DNA of 64,000 nt from Gemmatimonadota bacterium (GTDB lineage Bacteria; Gemmatimonadota; Gemmatimonadetes; Gemmatimonadales; GWC2-71-9): the NCBI GenBank assembly GCA_036679605.1, contig JAZDCZ010000324.1:32001-96000 (forward strand), given 5' to 3'. This document shows, piece by piece, positions 2,107 to 32,484 of this stretch; the stretch's first letter is position 1; every line of letters starts with the position of its first letter. The translations under genes and the position numbers were made by a program. Below the pieces are notes generated by a model. It was not told the origin of the DNA, searched no databases, and saw nothing but the letters and a program-made list of their open reading frames with translations.

Positions 2107-2370
2107 ATGAACAAGAGGCTTAGTTGCGGTGGACACATTATCGTCGCGATCCCAGAACGTGTGCCAGAATCGACGGAGTGGTACGCCAATGGTCGTATTG
2201 AACGCCTACGCGCCGATGGACCAGCGGTGTACGAGCGTAGTCCCGGTAACATATGTGCCACCGAGGAAGAAGCTGTGAAGTGCTACCACGCCTTCGGACA
2301 GCAGGTCATTTACGATGGCATTCAACTCACCCTGTCTACCGGTGATCCGAAACAGTTGGGGAAGCAATGA
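2107..2370 (+). CDS. Small protein, CV_2116/HlyU-like, paralog 1
   Basis: Shares MNKRL...IVA.P...ATEEEAV...HAFG with the next ORF; ATGA overlap. Confidence 0.65.
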   Translation: MNKRLSCGGHIIVAIPERVPESTEWYANGRIERLRADGPAVYERSPGNICATEEEAVKCYHAFGQQVIYDGIQLTLSTGDPKQLGKQ

Positions 2371-2882
2371 ACAAGAGGCTTGAGTATCAGGGATACGTTA
2401 TCGTCGCGACCCCCACTCAAGTGCGAGAATCGGAGTGGAGCACCCGATGTGATATTGAACAACACTCCGACGACGGTTTTGTTATGATAAAGTACTTCGA
2501 CGCAACCGCGGATACATGGGCCACCGAGGAAGAGGCTGTGAGAGAGTCCCACGCATTTGGGATGCGGATCATAGACTGCGAAGTCCCCGGTCTGTCCATC
2601 GGGGGGTTGTAGGAGAATCACGTTAACAGGTTTTCTCGGCCTAACGACCTCTTTGAACGGTCTGAAGAACTGACCTAAGCTGATGTCCAGCGGTGCCAAG
2701 ATCGCCGCCAGTGTCTCCACCGTAACGCCGCTCTCGCCGCGTTCTAACCTACCCACATAGGTACGGTGCACCCTGGCCTTCTGGGCCAGAGATTCCTGCG
2801 ATGTAATCCCCGCCCTTAGCCGCAACTCTCTTAGTCGTTCGCCAATCCTCTTCCTGAACTTGGCGTTGATGTGTTGAGCCAT
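2322..2882 (-). CDS. XRE-family HTH regulator; functional part about 2623-2882, C-terminal extension probably from a lost stop
   Basis: GERLRELRLRAGITSQESLAQKARVHRTYVGRLERGE is a classic XRE/C-protein HTH. Confidence 0.8.
   Translation of the reverse strand: MAQHINAKFRKRIGERLRELRLRAGITSQESLAQKARVHRTYVGRLERGESGVTVETLAAILAPLDISLGQFFRPFKEVVRPRKPVNVILLQPPDGQTGDFAVYDPHPKCVGLSHSLFLGGPCIRGCVEVLYHNKTVVGVLFNITSGAPLRFSHLSGGRDDNVSLILKPLVHCFPNCFGSPVDRVS
2367..2612 (+). CDS. Small protein, CV_2116/HlyU-like, paralog 2
   Basis: EYQGYVIVATP...DTWATEEEAVRESHAFGMRIID; tandem duplicate of 2107..2370. Confidence 0.7.
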   Translation: MNKRLEYQGYVIVATPTQVRESEWSTRCDIEQHSDDGFVMIKYFDATADTWATEEEAVRESHAFGMRIIDCEVPGLSIGGL

Positions 2883-3008: not shown

Positions 3009-3623
3009 CTATACCTCGCTCCGTTCGAATGGCACACGCGCCGCCCTCTGAAAAAGCAAAGCGGATCCAACGAAGAGCACGACGAAGAACGCGTTCAACC
3101 CCACGATCTCTCGCGGCCCGTTTACTGGGGCACCCAACCCGGCGATGAGCGCGATCACGGCGATCAACGCCTGGGTGAACGCCGCCGCGAACAACGCGCG
3201 TGCCATTCCACGGGGTCGGAAGCGCGCGATGATGGCACCGATGATACCGACTGCCAGCACCCCGCCATACATCAGGTTGGCGTCGTTGTTCTCGGACCCG
3301 ATGATGCCAACTGCGCCGTTCACCCAGACCAGGATGAACGCGGCCACGAGCGCAACGCCAACGCCGGCGCGGTACGCAGTGTCGCCTGACTTTCTCACTG
3401 CCAGTTCAAGGGGAATGCCGACGCCGAGCAGAAGGGCGCCGGCTAGAGCGAAGTCGGCCACACTCCAGTTCACCTCATCGGTGAACTGCATTGCAACCAG
3501 GGGCAGCAGCAGGACAACCGCCGCGGCTGACCAACCCGCGATCCTCCAACTGCTCCTGCGCCGTTCGCCTCCGCTTCCCGAGTCTCGTGTCATCGCCTTG
3601 TCTCCATGTCCGTCTATGTCCAT
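3009..3623 (-). CDS. Multi-pass membrane protein
   Basis: About 6 hydrophobic segments; LLLPLVAMQFTDEVNWS..DF and WVNGAVGIIGSE motifs. Confidence 0.75.
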   Translation of the reverse strand: MDIDGHGDKAMTRDSGSGGERRRSSWRIAGWSAAAVVLLLPLVAMQFTDEVNWSVADFALAGALLLGVGIPLELAVRKSGDTAYRAGVGVALVAAFILVWVNGAVGIIGSENNDANLMYGGVLAVGIIGAIIARFRPRGMARALFAAAFTQALIAVIALIAGLGAPVNGPREIVGLNAFFVVLFVGSALLFQRAARVPFERSEV

Positions 3624-3641
3624 TGCCCAGCCATGATTCAG

Positions 3642-3664
3642 TAAAGTACTTTATGATACAAAGT
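3642..3664. promoter_or_regulatory. Palindromic operator candidate upstream of the membrane protein
   Basis: Perfect 12-bp palindrome TAAAGTACTTTA overlapping ACTTT-N7-AAAGT in an AT-rich patch. Confidence 0.5.
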
Positions 3665-3711
3665 TCGTCAACCGCTTAAGCTGCCCACCGAGCGGGTGAC
3701 CTCCACTATCT

Positions 3712-3810
3712 TCAACGTGGAGTCCTCGGTCTCACCACCTGCTTGAACGGTCTGAAGATCTGACCACGGCGGCCAAGATCGCCGACTCCGCTCTCACCGC
3801 GTTCTAGCCC
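3712..3810 (-). pseudogene. Degenerate second copy of the XRE regulator C-terminus
   Basis: LERGESGV...GQIFRPFKQVVRPRTPR* matches LERGESGV...GQFFRPFKEVVRPRKP of 2322..2882, with two short internal deletions. Confidence 0.8.
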
Positions 3811-3898
3811 ATCGGGGTCAGTGAGTGTTCGCATCGTGGATGGTCGCGTTGAATCGGTTCTGTTTTCGACCGGAGCCCCATAGTATCTTTGTCGCATC

Positions 3899-4354
3899 AT
3901 GGTCACGCTACATCGGTTCGGCCACAGTCAGAAGAGGACGAGGTTAGTGGCATACTTTCGACGGGCCAGTCGTCTTAGTGAACTCGTGCTACCGCTGTTC
4001 ACTGCGCTGCTTCTCTTTGGGGGCGTCACGCTTCAGAGCGTGCGCACCTGCCCGCACCACGCTGCTCGCCACCATGGACCGAGTCAATCGGCGCTCGCGC
4101 CTACTCCAGAGTCTCAATCCGCTGAACAGACACACGCCGCAGCGGGCGAGAACCATGAGGGACGACCAGGCCCTTGTTCGTGCCTCGGCGCGTGTGAACT
4201 CGTGCAGAGCGCAGATCATGCCCATACCGGTGGAAGCACCTTTCTTGGTCTCCGCCCAACGCATGCACTCTCACTAGACAGACAGAGCACCGCCGCCGTA
4301 TGCAGCGCCGTCGCCCTGTTGCCTCCCGCGCGCGCCCCTCCAGTCACTTCCTAG
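3899..4354 (+). CDS. DUF2946/CruR-like His/Cys-rich leader protein with C-terminal RAPP arrest motif
   Basis: Hydrophobic segment, CPHH, His-rich linker, CSCLGAC, ends PPARAPPVTS*. Confidence 0.7.
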   Translation: MVTLHRFGHSQKRTRLVAYFRRASRLSELVLPLFTALLLFGGVTLQSVRTCPHHAARHHGPSQSALAPTPESQSAEQTHAAAGENHEGRPGPCSCLGACELVQSADHAHTGGSTFLGLRPTHALSLDRQSTAAVCSAVALLPPARAPPVTS

Positions 4355-4383
4355 CCACAACTCAGACTGCAAACAGCAAGCGG

Positions 4384-4450
4384 GCCGTAGCACGCTAGAA
4401 CAGGTGCTTACGGCTGTACGAGCGTCGTGGTGCCAACTCCTGAAACGGAG
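4384..4450 (+). promoter_or_regulatory. Intercistronic hairpins, one pairing with the downstream Shine-Dalgarno
   Basis: GCCGTAGCAC/GTGCTTACGGC stem, then CTCC-TGAAAC-GGAG covering the GGAGG RBS before GTG 4458. Confidence 0.45.
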
Positions 4451-4457
4451 GACAAGC

Positions 4458-5297
4458 GTGCATATCAGAAGGTCTGAAATTCAAAGGATTACGGGGTCAA
4501 CTGTTCGAGTAGCATTAATGCTCGCAGTGCTCACATTCGGAGCACGTGAAGCCCGAGCCCAAGAGGGCGAGTCGCACGAAGAAGATGGTCACAGTCATGG
4601 ACTGCACTTCTCCCACCCACTGTTTACCGAGTCCATCTCTCCGGATACCAAACTCCGAGCCAACACTGGACGCGAGTGGGAAACGGACGGCAATGCATGG
4701 GAACTCGAAGCGGAGGGAGAATACGCTTTCGACCGCTCCTTCAGCATCGAGGTTGGCCTTCCCTACTTGGTTCTCCAACCATCCGGTCTGAGCAGCACTT
4801 CAGGAGTGGGAAACCTCGAGGTCCTTTTCAAGTTCGCGAACTTTGCGTTTGAAGAGCACGGGTTACTGCTGGGCTACGGCATCGAGTTCGAAGTTCCCAC
4901 CGGTGATGACGCCAAGGGCATTGGAAGCGGCCACATCTGGGAGGTTGCGCCCGTCTTGAACGTGGGCTACAAGCGCGGCAACTTCGAACTGGTCGGTTGG
5001 ACGATCTTTGGGATCCCGTTCGGCCAGGAAGCCGGCGAGGCAGTCGAGACCGACTTCGTGTATAACGGCTCCTTGCTCATGCACGTATCGCCGCGGGTCC
5101 AGTTGCTCGCAGAGCTAAACGGCGAGACCGTGCTGAGTGGTGCTGAGGCGGGCACTACACTGGTGCGGCTTTCACCCGGTGTGAAAGTCGCGCCGTCGCG
5201 TGCCATTCCGCTCCTTCTCGGTGTCGGTGTGACGTTTCCGTTGTCGGACTCGGAGCTAGACGCTGGAGTGCTGGTGTCACTGTTTTACCATTTCTGA
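4458..5297 (+). CDS. Outer-membrane beta-barrel/transporter-family protein with His-rich N-terminus
   Basis: Signal peptide (ARA-Q), HEEDGHSHGLHFSHP, amphipathic beta strands, C-terminal YHF. Confidence 0.75.
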   Translation: MHIRRSEIQRITGSTVRVALMLAVLTFGAREARAQEGESHEEDGHSHGLHFSHPLFTESISPDTKLRANTGREWETDGNAWELEAEGEYAFDRSFSIEVGLPYLVLQPSGLSSTSGVGNLEVLFKFANFAFEEHGLLLGYGIEFEVPTGDDAKGIGSGHIWEVAPVLNVGYKRGNFELVGWTIFGIPFGQEAGEAVETDFVYNGSLLMHVSPRVQLLAELNGETVLSGAEAGTTLVRLSPGVKVAPSRAIPLLLGVGVTFPLSDSELDAGVLVSLFYHF

Positions 5298-5307
5298 GCG
5301 GGCTCGG

Positions 5308-5368
5308 TTCGCGAATGACTTACGGGATGACCACCGGGAAACTTCGGTGACACAGTGACTCTCGTCAT
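5308..5368 (-). pseudogene. Remnant of an AbrB/MazE/SpoVT-family antitoxin
   Basis: GGAGG RBS then MTRVTVSPKF / frameshift / VVIP*VIRE, matching the typical 'TVSPKFQVVIPK.IRE' N-terminus. Inverted repeats (CGGTAT..ATACCG) upstream at 5383-5420. Confidence 0.7.
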
Positions 5369-5482
5369 CCATTCCTCCGTAGTACGGTATATATATCGAT
5401 ACCGATATCGTAATACGGTAACCGCATTGAGGTGCACAACAATCTTTTGGAGAGGCTCTGGCCGAAGTAGACCTAGGTACGA

Positions 5483-5893
5483 TCAGGCGCCTGCGGCCCA
5501 CATTGTCTTTACAGCTTTGTAGCGTGCGATTCGCTGGTCGGCCGTTACCACGGTCGCTCCCAAAACGAGTGCGGTCGCGATGATCAAGCGATCGGCCGGA
5601 TCCCGGTGCACAAACCCCGGCAGCGCTATGGCGCGGAGAGCTATACGGTTATCGACCGGGACGAATTGGAGGAACGGCTGCGCCTCAGATCTAGCAACCC
5701 AATCGGCTATGCCAACAGTCAACTCCAGTCGCCCCCGCTCCACCAACATCGCCACCTCCCAGGTGCTGATGGACGAGACGTAGAGGCGGCCGCCGTCGCC
5801 GACGGTTTTATCGATGGTGGAGCGTGTGCGCCTGGGAATGCGTTTTGGATCTGCCACCCACCACACCCAGGCGTGGGTGTCGAGCAGCATCAC
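5483..5893 (-). CDS. vapC: Type II toxin, PIN domain (VapC)
   Basis: LLDTH...SSISTWEV...HRDPADRLIIATA...VTAD PIN motifs. Confidence 0.92.
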   Translation of the reverse strand: MMLLDTHAWVWWVADPKRIPRRTRSTIDKTVGDGGRLYVSSISTWEVAMLVERGRLELTVGIADWVARSEAQPFLQFVPVDNRIALRAIALPGFVHRDPADRLIIATALVLGATVVTADQRIARYKAVKTMWAAGA

Positions 5894-6132
5894 GAGCTGG
5901 TTGCTTCCCAGTCGTCTTCGGCCACCGGTTCTGTCGGTGCGTCATAGCGGACAACGGTGTCACGCAGAGCACGCAAGGACTCGGTAGGATCCTCGGAAAA
6001 CGGAACGAGTTTCAGAACCGGCGTGCCGCGATCGGTGATCACTATGGGCCGGCCCGTGCGCTCTACATCGCGAAAAAACTCGAGAGCCCGCGACTTGAAC
6101 TGCGATTTGGAAACCTTCGACAGATCTGACAT
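5890..6132 (-). CDS. Phd/YefM-family antitoxin
   Basis: SQFKSRALEFFRDVERTGRPIVITDRGTPVLKLVP; 4-nt overlap with the toxin. Confidence 0.9.
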   Translation of the reverse strand: MSDLSKVSKSQFKSRALEFFRDVERTGRPIVITDRGTPVLKLVPFSEDPTESLRALRDTVVRYDAPTEPVAEDDWEATSS

Positions 6133-32094: not shown

Positions 32095-32484
32095 CTAGGA
32101 CTTGGACACCTCGCTCATCAGCGCTAGTAGGTTGTCCTCCGTGTCTCTGAAGAAAGCGATCCATAGATCGTGGTTCTCGGCCTTGTGGACAAGCGCCGGT
32201 TCATGCTCGAAGGTCACCCCCTTAGCGCTTAGGGCACTGCAGGTCGCGTGGATATCGTCGACTCTGTAATAGATGATGGACGCCGGGTGATCGAACTCCG
32301 GTTTGTCGGGCAGTCCGAGCAAGAGTCTTACGTCACCACAGATGAAGAATGCCATGTTGGGGGGAGCTTGGAACAGAAAGTTCATGCCAAGCACGTCACG
32401 ATAGAACGTGATTGCGCGCTCGAGGTCATGTACGTTGATGGCTATCTGACCGATGCGGGAATTTCCGAGACCTGTGTTCTCCAT
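32095..32484 (-). CDS. VOC/glyoxalase-family protein
   Basis: IGQIAINVHDLERAITFYRDVLG...FFRDTEDNLLALM. Confidence 0.9.
   Translation of the reverse strand: MENTGLGNSRIGQIAINVHDLERAITFYRDVLGMNFLFQAPPNMAFFICGDVRLLLGLPDKPEFDHPASIIYYRVDDIHATCSALSAKGVTFEHEPALVHKAENHDLWIAFFRDTEDNLLALMSEVSKS

What the first reader, a model, noticed from the sequence alone, without database searches (positions are those of the whole stretch)
3899..5297. Candidate metal-sensing ribosome-arrest (RAPP) leader controlling a His-rich outer-membrane barrel
Seen: a 151-aa ORF with a hydrophobic segment, CPHH, a His-rich spacer and CSCLGAC, ending PPARAPPVTS*. About 100 nt follow, with a strong hairpin and a CTCC/GGAG stem covering the SD of a beta-barrel whose mature N-terminus is HEEDGHSHGLHFSH. 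Known: RAPP is a ribosome-stalling motif (ApdA/ApdP), and DUF2946 proteins such as Bordetella CruR use CxxC plus RAPP to regulate a downstream TonB-dependent receptor in response to copper. Inference: this is a variant with a CxCxxxC and CPHH ligand set and a non-TonB barrel as target, so possibly an undescribed metal-uptake switch in this lineage.
Basis: partly seen in the sequence, partly recalled or inferred. Interest (0 to 1): 0.75.

Follow-up and report, generated by a model that had tools for sequence, protein, structure and literature searches.

The report
Metal-sensing stalling leader before small barrel
A short gene with conserved cysteines and a proline ending sits just ahead of a predicted outer-membrane channel gene in this and many related Gemmatimonadota bacteria; it likely stalls its own ribosome, likely senses copper or a similar metal, and would thereby switch the channel on and off, as a diverged variant of the known CruR/CutF copper switches.

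Summary
Observation confirmed; interpretation largely supported, but this is a variant of a known class. The leader (3899-4354) has a hydrophobic segment, CPHH, CSCLGAC and RAPP, with 45 residues between Cys cluster and RAPP, as in CruR. It is the only such ORF among 28,453 in the genome. 11 of the 14 closest barrel loci with enough upstream DNA carry a similar leader. A leader profile matches 128 of 301 phylum genomes; 56 of 91 downstream genes examined are TonB receptors, so the barrel is a minority target. Cys-x-Cys, Pro-Pro and the spacing (median 46) are conserved; the Arg is not (6 of 28 barrel-linked leaders), so 'RAPP co-conservation' fails. The stall-site codons are selected to pair with the next gene's Shine-Dalgarno site (42 of 69 loci; 7 of 150 controls), though the predicted switch in this locus is weak. 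The barrel is predicted 12-stranded, COG4313/FapF-like, with invariant plug histidines. The leader misses the DUF2946 cut-off but fits the published CutF-like definition. Metal, stalling and direction are untested; stall-by-default, metal-releases (uptake) is my best guess. This scan has reported similar leaders in other Gemmatimonadota genomes.

The parts
3899..4354 (+). Leader ORF (151 aa from ATG 3899; 135 aa from GTG 3947), CutF/CruR-like candidate arrest peptide
   Evidence: family alignment; profile hits
3983..4033 (+). Hydrophobic signal/anchor segment (residues 29-45)
   Evidence: hydropathy; aligned hydrophobic stretch in homologues
4049..4060 (+). CPHH motif (residues 51-54), first predicted metal-ligand group
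   Evidence: CPHH in 11 of 28 and CPxH in 17 of 28 barrel-linked leaders; CPHH in 80 of 150 representatives
4175..4195 (+). CSCLGAC (CxCxxxC, residues 93-99), main predicted metal-ligand group; contains the CutF-type CxxxC
   Evidence: C93 and C95 invariant in 28 sequences; CxCxxxC in 23 of 28
4331..4342 (+). RAPP codons (residues 145-148), predicted stall site, 45 residues after the Cys cluster
   Evidence: P147 and P148 invariant; Arg not conserved
4328..4341 (+). Anti-SD/anti-start element inside the stall-site codons, pairs with 4447-4461
   Evidence: centroid structure; duplex -21.4 kcal/mol; family tests
4383..4415 (+). Intergenic hairpin (-17.1 kcal/mol); its left arm (4390-4396) can alternatively pair with the start-codon region 4455-4461
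4437..4451 (+). Local CTCC/GGAG stem (-5.4 kcal/mol) over the SD GGAGG (4447-4451)
4458..5297 (+). Outer-membrane barrel gene (279 aa; PF13557; predicted 12-stranded COG4313/FapF-like fold)
4560..4619 (+). His-rich mature N-terminus and conserved HF[SA]HP plug motif of the barrel (residues 35-54)
   Evidence: H53, F51, P54, E58, D63 invariant and H50 nearly invariant in 42 sequences

Best explanation
The small gene is a conserved leader that likely stalls its ribosome at the RAPP codons by default, which would uncover the barrel's ribosome-binding site, and copper or a similar metal bound by its Cys/His residues would likely release the stall and switch the predicted metal channel off. Shown here: the ORF, its motifs, their conservation and 45-46-residue spacing, its position ahead of the barrel, and codon-level selection for pairing between the stall-site codons and the downstream SD. 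Inferred from CruR/CutF: (1) the ribosome pauses with Pro-Pro in the P and A sites; (2) the paused ribosome covers 4328-4341, breaking the pairing with SD and GTG (and may also block Rho, as for CruR); (3) the Cys cluster, 45 residues from the stall site, has just left the exit tunnel, binds metal together with CPHH, folds and pulls the chain free; (4) the finished ribosome leaves, the anti-SD re-pairs and barrel synthesis stops. My odds: arrest-type leader controlling the barrel about 0.8; metal as the signal about 0.7; copper rather than another metal about 0.5; this direction (on when metal is scarce) about 0.6 of the metal-sensing case.
For: Spacing of 45 residues equals CruR's, where it is functionally required; median 46, range 41-47 in 28 barrel-linked leaders. 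CruR arrests at RAPP in a purified system and RAPP/RGPP give robust, EF-P-resistant arrest (PMC12992588, passages). Leader present before 11 of 14 closest barrel loci, by a motif rule as well as by the profile. First Pro codon is CCT (giving the anti-SD CCTCC) in 54 of 115 leaders against 132 of 838 Pro-Pro pairs in long ORFs and 66 of 823 other leader Pro codons. Own leader end and own RBS pair better than swapped pairs (-15.4 vs -13.9 +/- 0.33 kcal/mol, 0 of 5000 permutations; no such effect 36, 60 or 90 nt upstream). SD paired into the footprint at P>0.5 in 42 of 69 loci against 7 of 150 ordinary gene pairs and 9-22 of 69 after synonymous recoding. Family targets are mostly import and copper-delivery genes: 56 TonB receptors, 1 MbnP, 1 CopD, 3 PCuAC among 91. 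Barrel has a His-rich N-terminus and invariant His/Glu/Asp in the plug segment.
Against: No experiment on this family. Arg, irreplaceable in ApcA/ApdA/ApdP (PMC12992588 section 7), is absent from 22 of 28 barrel-linked leaders and 90 of 90 other phylum hits; most natural RAPP-like motifs do not stall (preprint 10.1101/2023.09.02.556018, passages). In this locus the predicted opening is weak: SD unpaired probability 0.07 free, 0.19 blocked, because the local CTCC stem takes over; 11 of 200 synonymous recodings pair as well. Where the barrel has metal neighbours they are efflux/resistance genes (CusA/CusB in 6, CopC/D in 2, P1B or oxidase motif in 2, of 149 loci), which fits the opposite direction; 139 of 149 loci have none of the metal genes tested. 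3 of the 14 closest barrel loci, and 64 of 118 overall, have no leader by the motif rule. Described COG4313 channels are linked to hydrophobic molecules, not metals (PMC4493636, passages).
Confidence: 0.5

Rival explanations
1. CutF-type direction: the leader is exported while being made, metal bound outside the membrane prolongs the pause, the SD opens and the barrel is made when metal is high, serving detoxification or buffering.
For: The motif contains CutF's CxxxC and extra upstream Cys; hydrophobic export segment conserved; control by SD occlusion is the CutF mechanism and is what the RNA tests show. Barrel genes lie inside cusB-barrel-cusA (L014, L024), right after cusA (L066, L071) or after copC/D (L065, L185). 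The Arg-less Pro-Pro endings of most homologues resemble a weaker, inducible pause.
Against: This copy has a full RAPP and CruR's exact spacing; 56 of 91 family targets are TonB receptors, usually importers; only 10 of 149 barrel loci have such neighbours.
Confidence: 0.25
2. The leader is an arrest peptide, but it monitors envelope state (export or disulfide formation) rather than a metal; the Cys residues form disulfides whose folding releases the stall.
For: Disulfide-driven release is proposed for metal-free CutF; one family member precedes a ResA-like thiol-disulfide protein; most barrel loci lack metal genes.
Against: Conserved His beside Cys (CPHH) and His-rich spacer; PCuAC, MbnP, CopD and copper-type TonB receptors among targets; His-rich barrel N-terminus.
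Confidence: 0.1
3. The small protein is an exported metal chaperone or buffer that works with the barrel; the proline ending is structural and there is no translational control.
For: Export segment plus Cys/His ligands; Arg not conserved; weak predicted switch in this locus.
Against: Length from Cys cluster to Pro-Pro is conserved while the sequence between is not; codon choice at Pro-Pro is biased to the anti-SD and co-varies with the own RBS; the same leader heads unrelated target genes.
Confidence: 0.1
4. Chance ORF or assembly artefact.
For: No Pfam DUF2946 or NCBIfam match for this protein at E<=1.
Against: 1 of 28,453 genome ORFs has this motif combination; homologues in 128 of 301 genomes and 2044 sequence clusters.
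Confidence: 0.01

Closest known systems
CruR (Bp2923) of Bordetella pertussis, DUF2946/PF11162 (PMC9426467; arrest shown in PMC12992588)
   Same: Small first gene with export signal, Cys cluster 45 residues before a C-terminal RAPP, long intergenic region, outer-membrane transporter downstream; most family members here also precede TonB receptors.
   Different: CxCxxxC plus CPHH instead of CxxC; no DUF2946 match for this protein; target is a small COG4313-like barrel; family consensus lacks the Arg; evidence here points to SD occlusion, whereas CruR acts through Rho (not tested here).
CutF of Rhodobacter capsulatus and the CutF-like class (PMC9973294; bioRxiv 10.1101/2025.02.05.636593)
   Same: Export signal, CxxxC with extra upstream Cys, C-terminal Pro-Pro, RNA structure over the next gene's SD; fits the published rule set for CutF-like proteins.
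   Different: RAPP rather than PPP in this copy; the anti-SD lies in the stall codons rather than only in an intergenic stem-loop; target is a barrel, not a multicopper oxidase; PF13557 is not among the neighbours named in the text I read (the full neighbour table was not available).
RAPP/RQH arrest peptides ApdA, ApdP and relatives (PMC12992588; preprint 10.1101/2023.09.02.556018)
   Same: RAPP a few residues from the C-terminus with an N-terminal localisation signal; QAPP and HAPP variants occur in this family too.
   Different: Those monitor Sec/YidC and need R, Q or H; the commonest motifs here are NGPP, NAPP, TAPP and TGPP, which I did not find described as arrest motifs.
COG4313/PF13557 channels Pput2725 (PDB 4rl8, PMC4493636) and FapF (PDB 5o65); PcoB (PDB 7pge)
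   Same: [quoted passage not shown]
   Different: Only 13-14% identity; His-rich N-terminus and invariant HF[SA]HP-x-ES-x-PD plug; no metal role in the passages read. The copper barrel PcoB is a weaker match (Z 14.3, rmsd 3.6 A, 183 residues).

Membership tests
DUF2946 / PF11162 (CruR) | Score at or above the Pfam gathering cut-off (23.7 bits) | tested here: not met
   No match at E<=1 for the window leader. 10 of 27 homologues in alignment A2 match below cut-off (best 18.1 bits); an alphaproteobacterial leader of the same barrel family (L069) passes at 26.6 but does not align to A2 (probability 0.2).
DUF2946 / PF11162 (CruR) | CXXC motif | tested here: not met
   The motif is CxCxxxC.
DUF2946 / PF11162 (CruR) | C-terminal RAPP | tested here: met
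   RAPP at 145-148, 3 residues from the end; met for this copy only, Arg in 6 of 28 homologues.
DUF2946 / PF11162 (CruR) | About 45 residues between Cys motif and RAPP | tested here: met
   45 here; median 46 in all three homologue sets (the sets were gathered with a profile or rule that favours this spacing).
CutF-like proteins (rule set of PMC9973294) | [quoted passage not shown] | tested here: met
   135 aa from GTG 3947 (151 from ATG 3899, one over the limit); PP 3 residues from the end; 103 nt gap.
CutF-like proteins (rule set of PMC9973294) | N-terminal signal peptide | tested here: inconclusive
   Basic N-region plus hydrophobic stretch 29-45, conserved; no signal-peptide predictor was available, cleavage unknown.
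CutF-like proteins (rule set of PMC9973294) | Cys/His metal-binding motif | tested here: met
   CxxxC within CSCLGAC, plus CPHH; binding itself untested.
CutF-like proteins (rule set of PMC9973294) | RNA structure shielding the downstream SD that a paused ribosome opens | tested here: inconclusive
   Met for the family (42 of 69 vs 7 of 150); in this locus the SD is shielded but opens only from 0.07 to 0.19.
CutF-like proteins (rule set of PMC9973294) | Belongs to one of the 29 published sequence clusters | not testable with these tools
   The cluster and neighbour tables were not among the 3 supplementary files held.
Regulatory arrest peptides (CruR, CutF, ApdA/P) | Ribosome arrest at the motif, metal-dependent, acting in cis | not testable with these tools
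   Needs toeprinting and reporters.
COG4313 / PF13557 barrels | Pfam PF13557 above cut-off and 12-stranded barrel with N-terminal segment | tested here: met
   23.7 vs 22 bits; model pLDDT 86 with 12 barrel strands; best structural matches FapF and Pput2725.

The most novel reading that the evidence does not exclude
Gemmatimonadota run a phylum-wide metal switch built on an arginine-free arrest motif ([N/T][A/G]PP, with RAPP as a rare variant) whose own Pro-Pro codons are the anti-Shine-Dalgarno sequence, and it controls a histidine-plugged COG4313 subfamily that is the first metal channel of that fold family.
Probability: 0.3. Interest if true: 0.65.

Novelty: new variant of a known kind. Interest (0 to 1): 0.4.

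Why it matters
The mechanism class is published (CruR, CutF, 5,334 CutF-like proteins), so this is not a new kind of system. Three things are worth a specialist's time. The family conserves Pro-Pro and the spacing but not the Arg that is irreplaceable in the studied RAPP peptides, which gives a natural series (RAPP, NAPP, NGPP, TAPP) for asking what the Arg does. The stall codons double as the anti-SD, a testable link between pause and translation. And a metal-type leader plus a His-rich plug suggests a substrate class for an uncharacterised COG4313 subfamily found across many phyla.

Tried and rejected
Pfam and NCBIfam give no family for the window leader. Rfam finds nothing in 3500-5600, so no known riboswitch. 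No sigma-70 consensus promoter or terminator was called for the leader; one terminator-like site at 5259-5278 is within chance. The intergenic region as a whole is not unusually stable. The local CTCC/GGAG stem as the switch: rejected, since it persists when the ribosome footprint is blocked. 'RAPP is conserved': rejected. 'Leader is specific to this barrel': rejected. Sequence search of solved structures with the barrel alignment found nothing useful. Profile comparison of A2 with the true DUF2946 leader L069 gave no alignment. No RNA holder was listed among sequencing runs, which says nothing on expression. The Atlas gave no result for the window leader itself; a homologue was nearest to unnamed Gemmatimonadota clusters and a DUF2946-named cluster (score 0.96), with no structural match above TM 0.32. 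Pfam scans of barrel neighbours (58 and 66 proteins) showed no conserved operon partner. Literature searches for a description of this family and supplement searches for Gemmatimonadota or PF13557 terms found none; the CutF neighbour table and one EMBO J supplementary file were not seen and could contain it.

Full report
1. Observation. The leader ORF 3899-4354 and barrel ORF 4458-5297 are as described. CSCLGAC is at residues 93-99 and RAPP at 145-148, with 45 residues between them. The start is uncertain: GTG 3947 has an SD-like AGAGGA 8 nt upstream and gives 135 aa; ATG 3899 has none. Among 28,453 six-frame ORFs of at least 90 aa in the genome, 218 end in x[AG]PP, 22 in R[AG]PP, and only this one has CxCxxxC at the right distance. 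The 4383-4415 hairpin (-17.1) and the CTCC/GGAG stem (-5.4) exist, but the region is not more structured than shuffles (z -0.53) and matches no Rfam family.

2. The barrel. It matches PF13557 just above cut-off and has 562 homologues at E<=0.001. In an alignment of 42 of the 120 listed, F51, H53, P54, E58, S59, P62, D63 are invariant and H50 nearly so, usually preceded by a His-rich tail. The model (pLDDT 86) has an N-terminal helix and 12 barrel strands; best matches are FapF (Z 23.8, rmsd 2.2, 223 residues) and the COG4313 channel Pput2725 (Z 23.4, rmsd 2.3, 220), with PcoB at Z 14.3. In Pput2725 the N-terminal segment fills the lumen and the family is linked to hydrophobic solutes (PMC4493636, passages). 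That the conserved His segment is the plug follows from the structural alignment beginning at residues 50-56; that it binds metal is inference. The nearest named relatives are Gemmatimonadota, so I take the window to be from that phylum.

3. Co-conservation. I fetched the best 80 of 148 genome loci, the best 80 of 207 metagenome loci and 29 loci from a phylum search in which 28 of 301 genomes matched. Dropped before counting: 18 reverse-oriented loci, duplicates, the window's own locus, loci with under 650 nt upstream and weak matches under 140 bits. Of the rest, a Cys-bearing ORF ending in Pro-Pro lies upstream in 11 of 14 closest loci, 4 of 18 next and 39 of 86 most distant; the leader profile finds 11, 1 and 16 (the profile was built from these leaders, so only the motif rule is independent of it). 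I picked 27 leaders by hand for alignment A2: mean identity 24%, invariant C93, C95, P147, P148.

4. The family. The A2 profile matches 128 of 301 phylum genomes and 2044 clusters at 50% identity; in the own genome only this locus scores well. I examined 89 loci of the 157 matches, giving 91 leader hits (4 are also training loci). Downstream: 56 TonB-receptor matches by my count, 1 MbnP, 1 CopD, 1 ResA-like; of the 32 others scanned, 3 PCuAC, 4 BBP2 porins, 6 PF13557 (4 at or above cut-off), 1 cytochrome c, 3 other domains and 15 without a match. Spacing from Cys cluster to motif has median 46 in 28 barrel-linked leaders, 90 of 91 phylum hits and 149 of 150 representatives (selection favours this spacing). 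Arg stands at the first motif position in 6 of 28, 0 of 90 and 3 of 149; NGPP, NAPP, TAPP and TGPP dominate.

5. RNA. In the window the RAPP codons pair with the SD and GTG (duplex -21.4; P 0.6-0.8 in the shorter folding windows, replaced by the local stem in longer ones). Across 115 leaders the first Pro codon is CCT in 54, against 132 of 838 and 66 of 823 in two backgrounds. Of the 115, 79 had a callable SD and start and 69 remained after removing near-duplicates; own pairs bind better than swapped pairs (0 of 5000 permutations; 353, 2428 and 1093 of 5000 for control stretches upstream), the SD pairs into the footprint in 42 of 69 (17 of 24 barrel-linked) and mean SD accessibility rises from 0.10 to 0.37 when the footprint is blocked (a looser first pass on 87 loci gave the same duplex result). 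Controls: 7 of 150 ordinary gene pairs, drawn from 309, with accessibility 0.36 to 0.37; 9-22 of 69 in 12 synonymous recodings. The genomes are related, so these tests overstate independence, and start sites were called mechanically. In the window itself the gain is small (0.07 to 0.19) and 11 of 200 recodings pair as well.

6. Which metal, which direction. Ten of 149 barrel loci (865 kb) hold CusA/CusB, CopC/D, a P1B-ATPase motif or an oxidase motif (CusA/CzcA confirmed for 4 of 4 tested), several directly adjacent; the same tests find roughly ten such sites in the 6.7-Mb own genome, so the enrichment is real but modest. With PCuAC, MbnP and CopD among family targets, copper is the best guess. 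Direction is open: RAPP, the 45-residue spacing and importer-type targets favour CruR's logic (stall by default, metal releases); efflux neighbours and SD occlusion favour CutF's (metal prolongs the stall). In both, stalling turns the barrel on.

7. Known systems. CruR: CXXC and RAPP 45 residues apart, Rho-dependent, signal dispensable (PMC9426467, parts 1, 3 and 4 of 7 and passages); arrest shown in vitro (PMC12992588, passages). CutF: CxxxC, Pro-rich end, stem-loop over the SD; 5,334 CutF-like proteins in 29 clusters with varied Cys/His motifs (PMC9973294, passages and section 11; bioRxiv 10.1101/2025.02.05.636593, part 1 of 6 and passages). PMC10951233 was seen only as a search listing. The window leader fails the DUF2946 cut-off; 10 of 27 homologues match weakly and a homologue's nearest named Atlas cluster is DUF2946. 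It works like CruR/CutF and meets the CutF-like rules, but should not be filed as DUF2946. I found no paper on this Gemmatimonadota group or on PF13557 targets (searches; supplements 20, 74, 75), but the CutF neighbour table was not visible. Earlier notes of this scan report similar leaders in other Gemmatimonadota genomes, including 45-residue spacing and anti-SD pairing; none matched this barrel by sequence. They are not independent evidence.

8. Verdict. Real and conserved; a new variant of a known kind. Interest 0.4.

Noticed in passing
G000 contig C296, minus strand, leader stop near 32463: A second, different leader in the same genome (HxxxWCHTC, RGPP ending) heads a barrel gene, a metal-binding-protein-like gene and an ABC-permease-like gene (labels from reading the translations, no family scan); the A2 profile does not find it. 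It resembles the zinc-type operons in earlier scan notes.
   Followed up: partly
L014, L024: The barrel gene lies between cusB-like and cusA-like genes with no leader, i.e. inside a heavy-metal RND operon.
   Followed up: partly
L026, L033, L037, L039, L041, L042, L044, L069, L132, L152 and others: In other phyla the same barrel family is preceded by unrelated Cys-rich Pro-Pro leaders (endings FRPP, KSPP, RAPP, RGPP, TPPP), one a true DUF2946; the barrel has been paired with different leader types repeatedly.
   Followed up: partly
L243, L280, L222 with L202, L238 with L240: Two leaders of this family within 2 to 15 kb of each other, each ahead of its own target gene.
   Followed up: no
window 5483-6132 (-): Phd/YefM antitoxin and PIN-domain toxin pair converging on the barrel gene; with the XRE-type HTH (2322-2882) and DUF6566 gene (2367-2612) this looks like a variable region.
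   Followed up: no
window 5377-5418: AT-rich imperfect palindrome (23-nt arms, 78% complementary) between the barrel and the toxin gene; role unknown.
   Followed up: no
window 3009-3623 (-): 204-aa multi-pass membrane protein divergent from the leader, no family above cut-off.
   Followed up: no
window 2107-2370 and 2367-2612 (+): Two adjacent short ORFs with similar sequence (both begin MNKRL), an apparent tandem duplication; only the second matches DUF6566.
   Followed up: no
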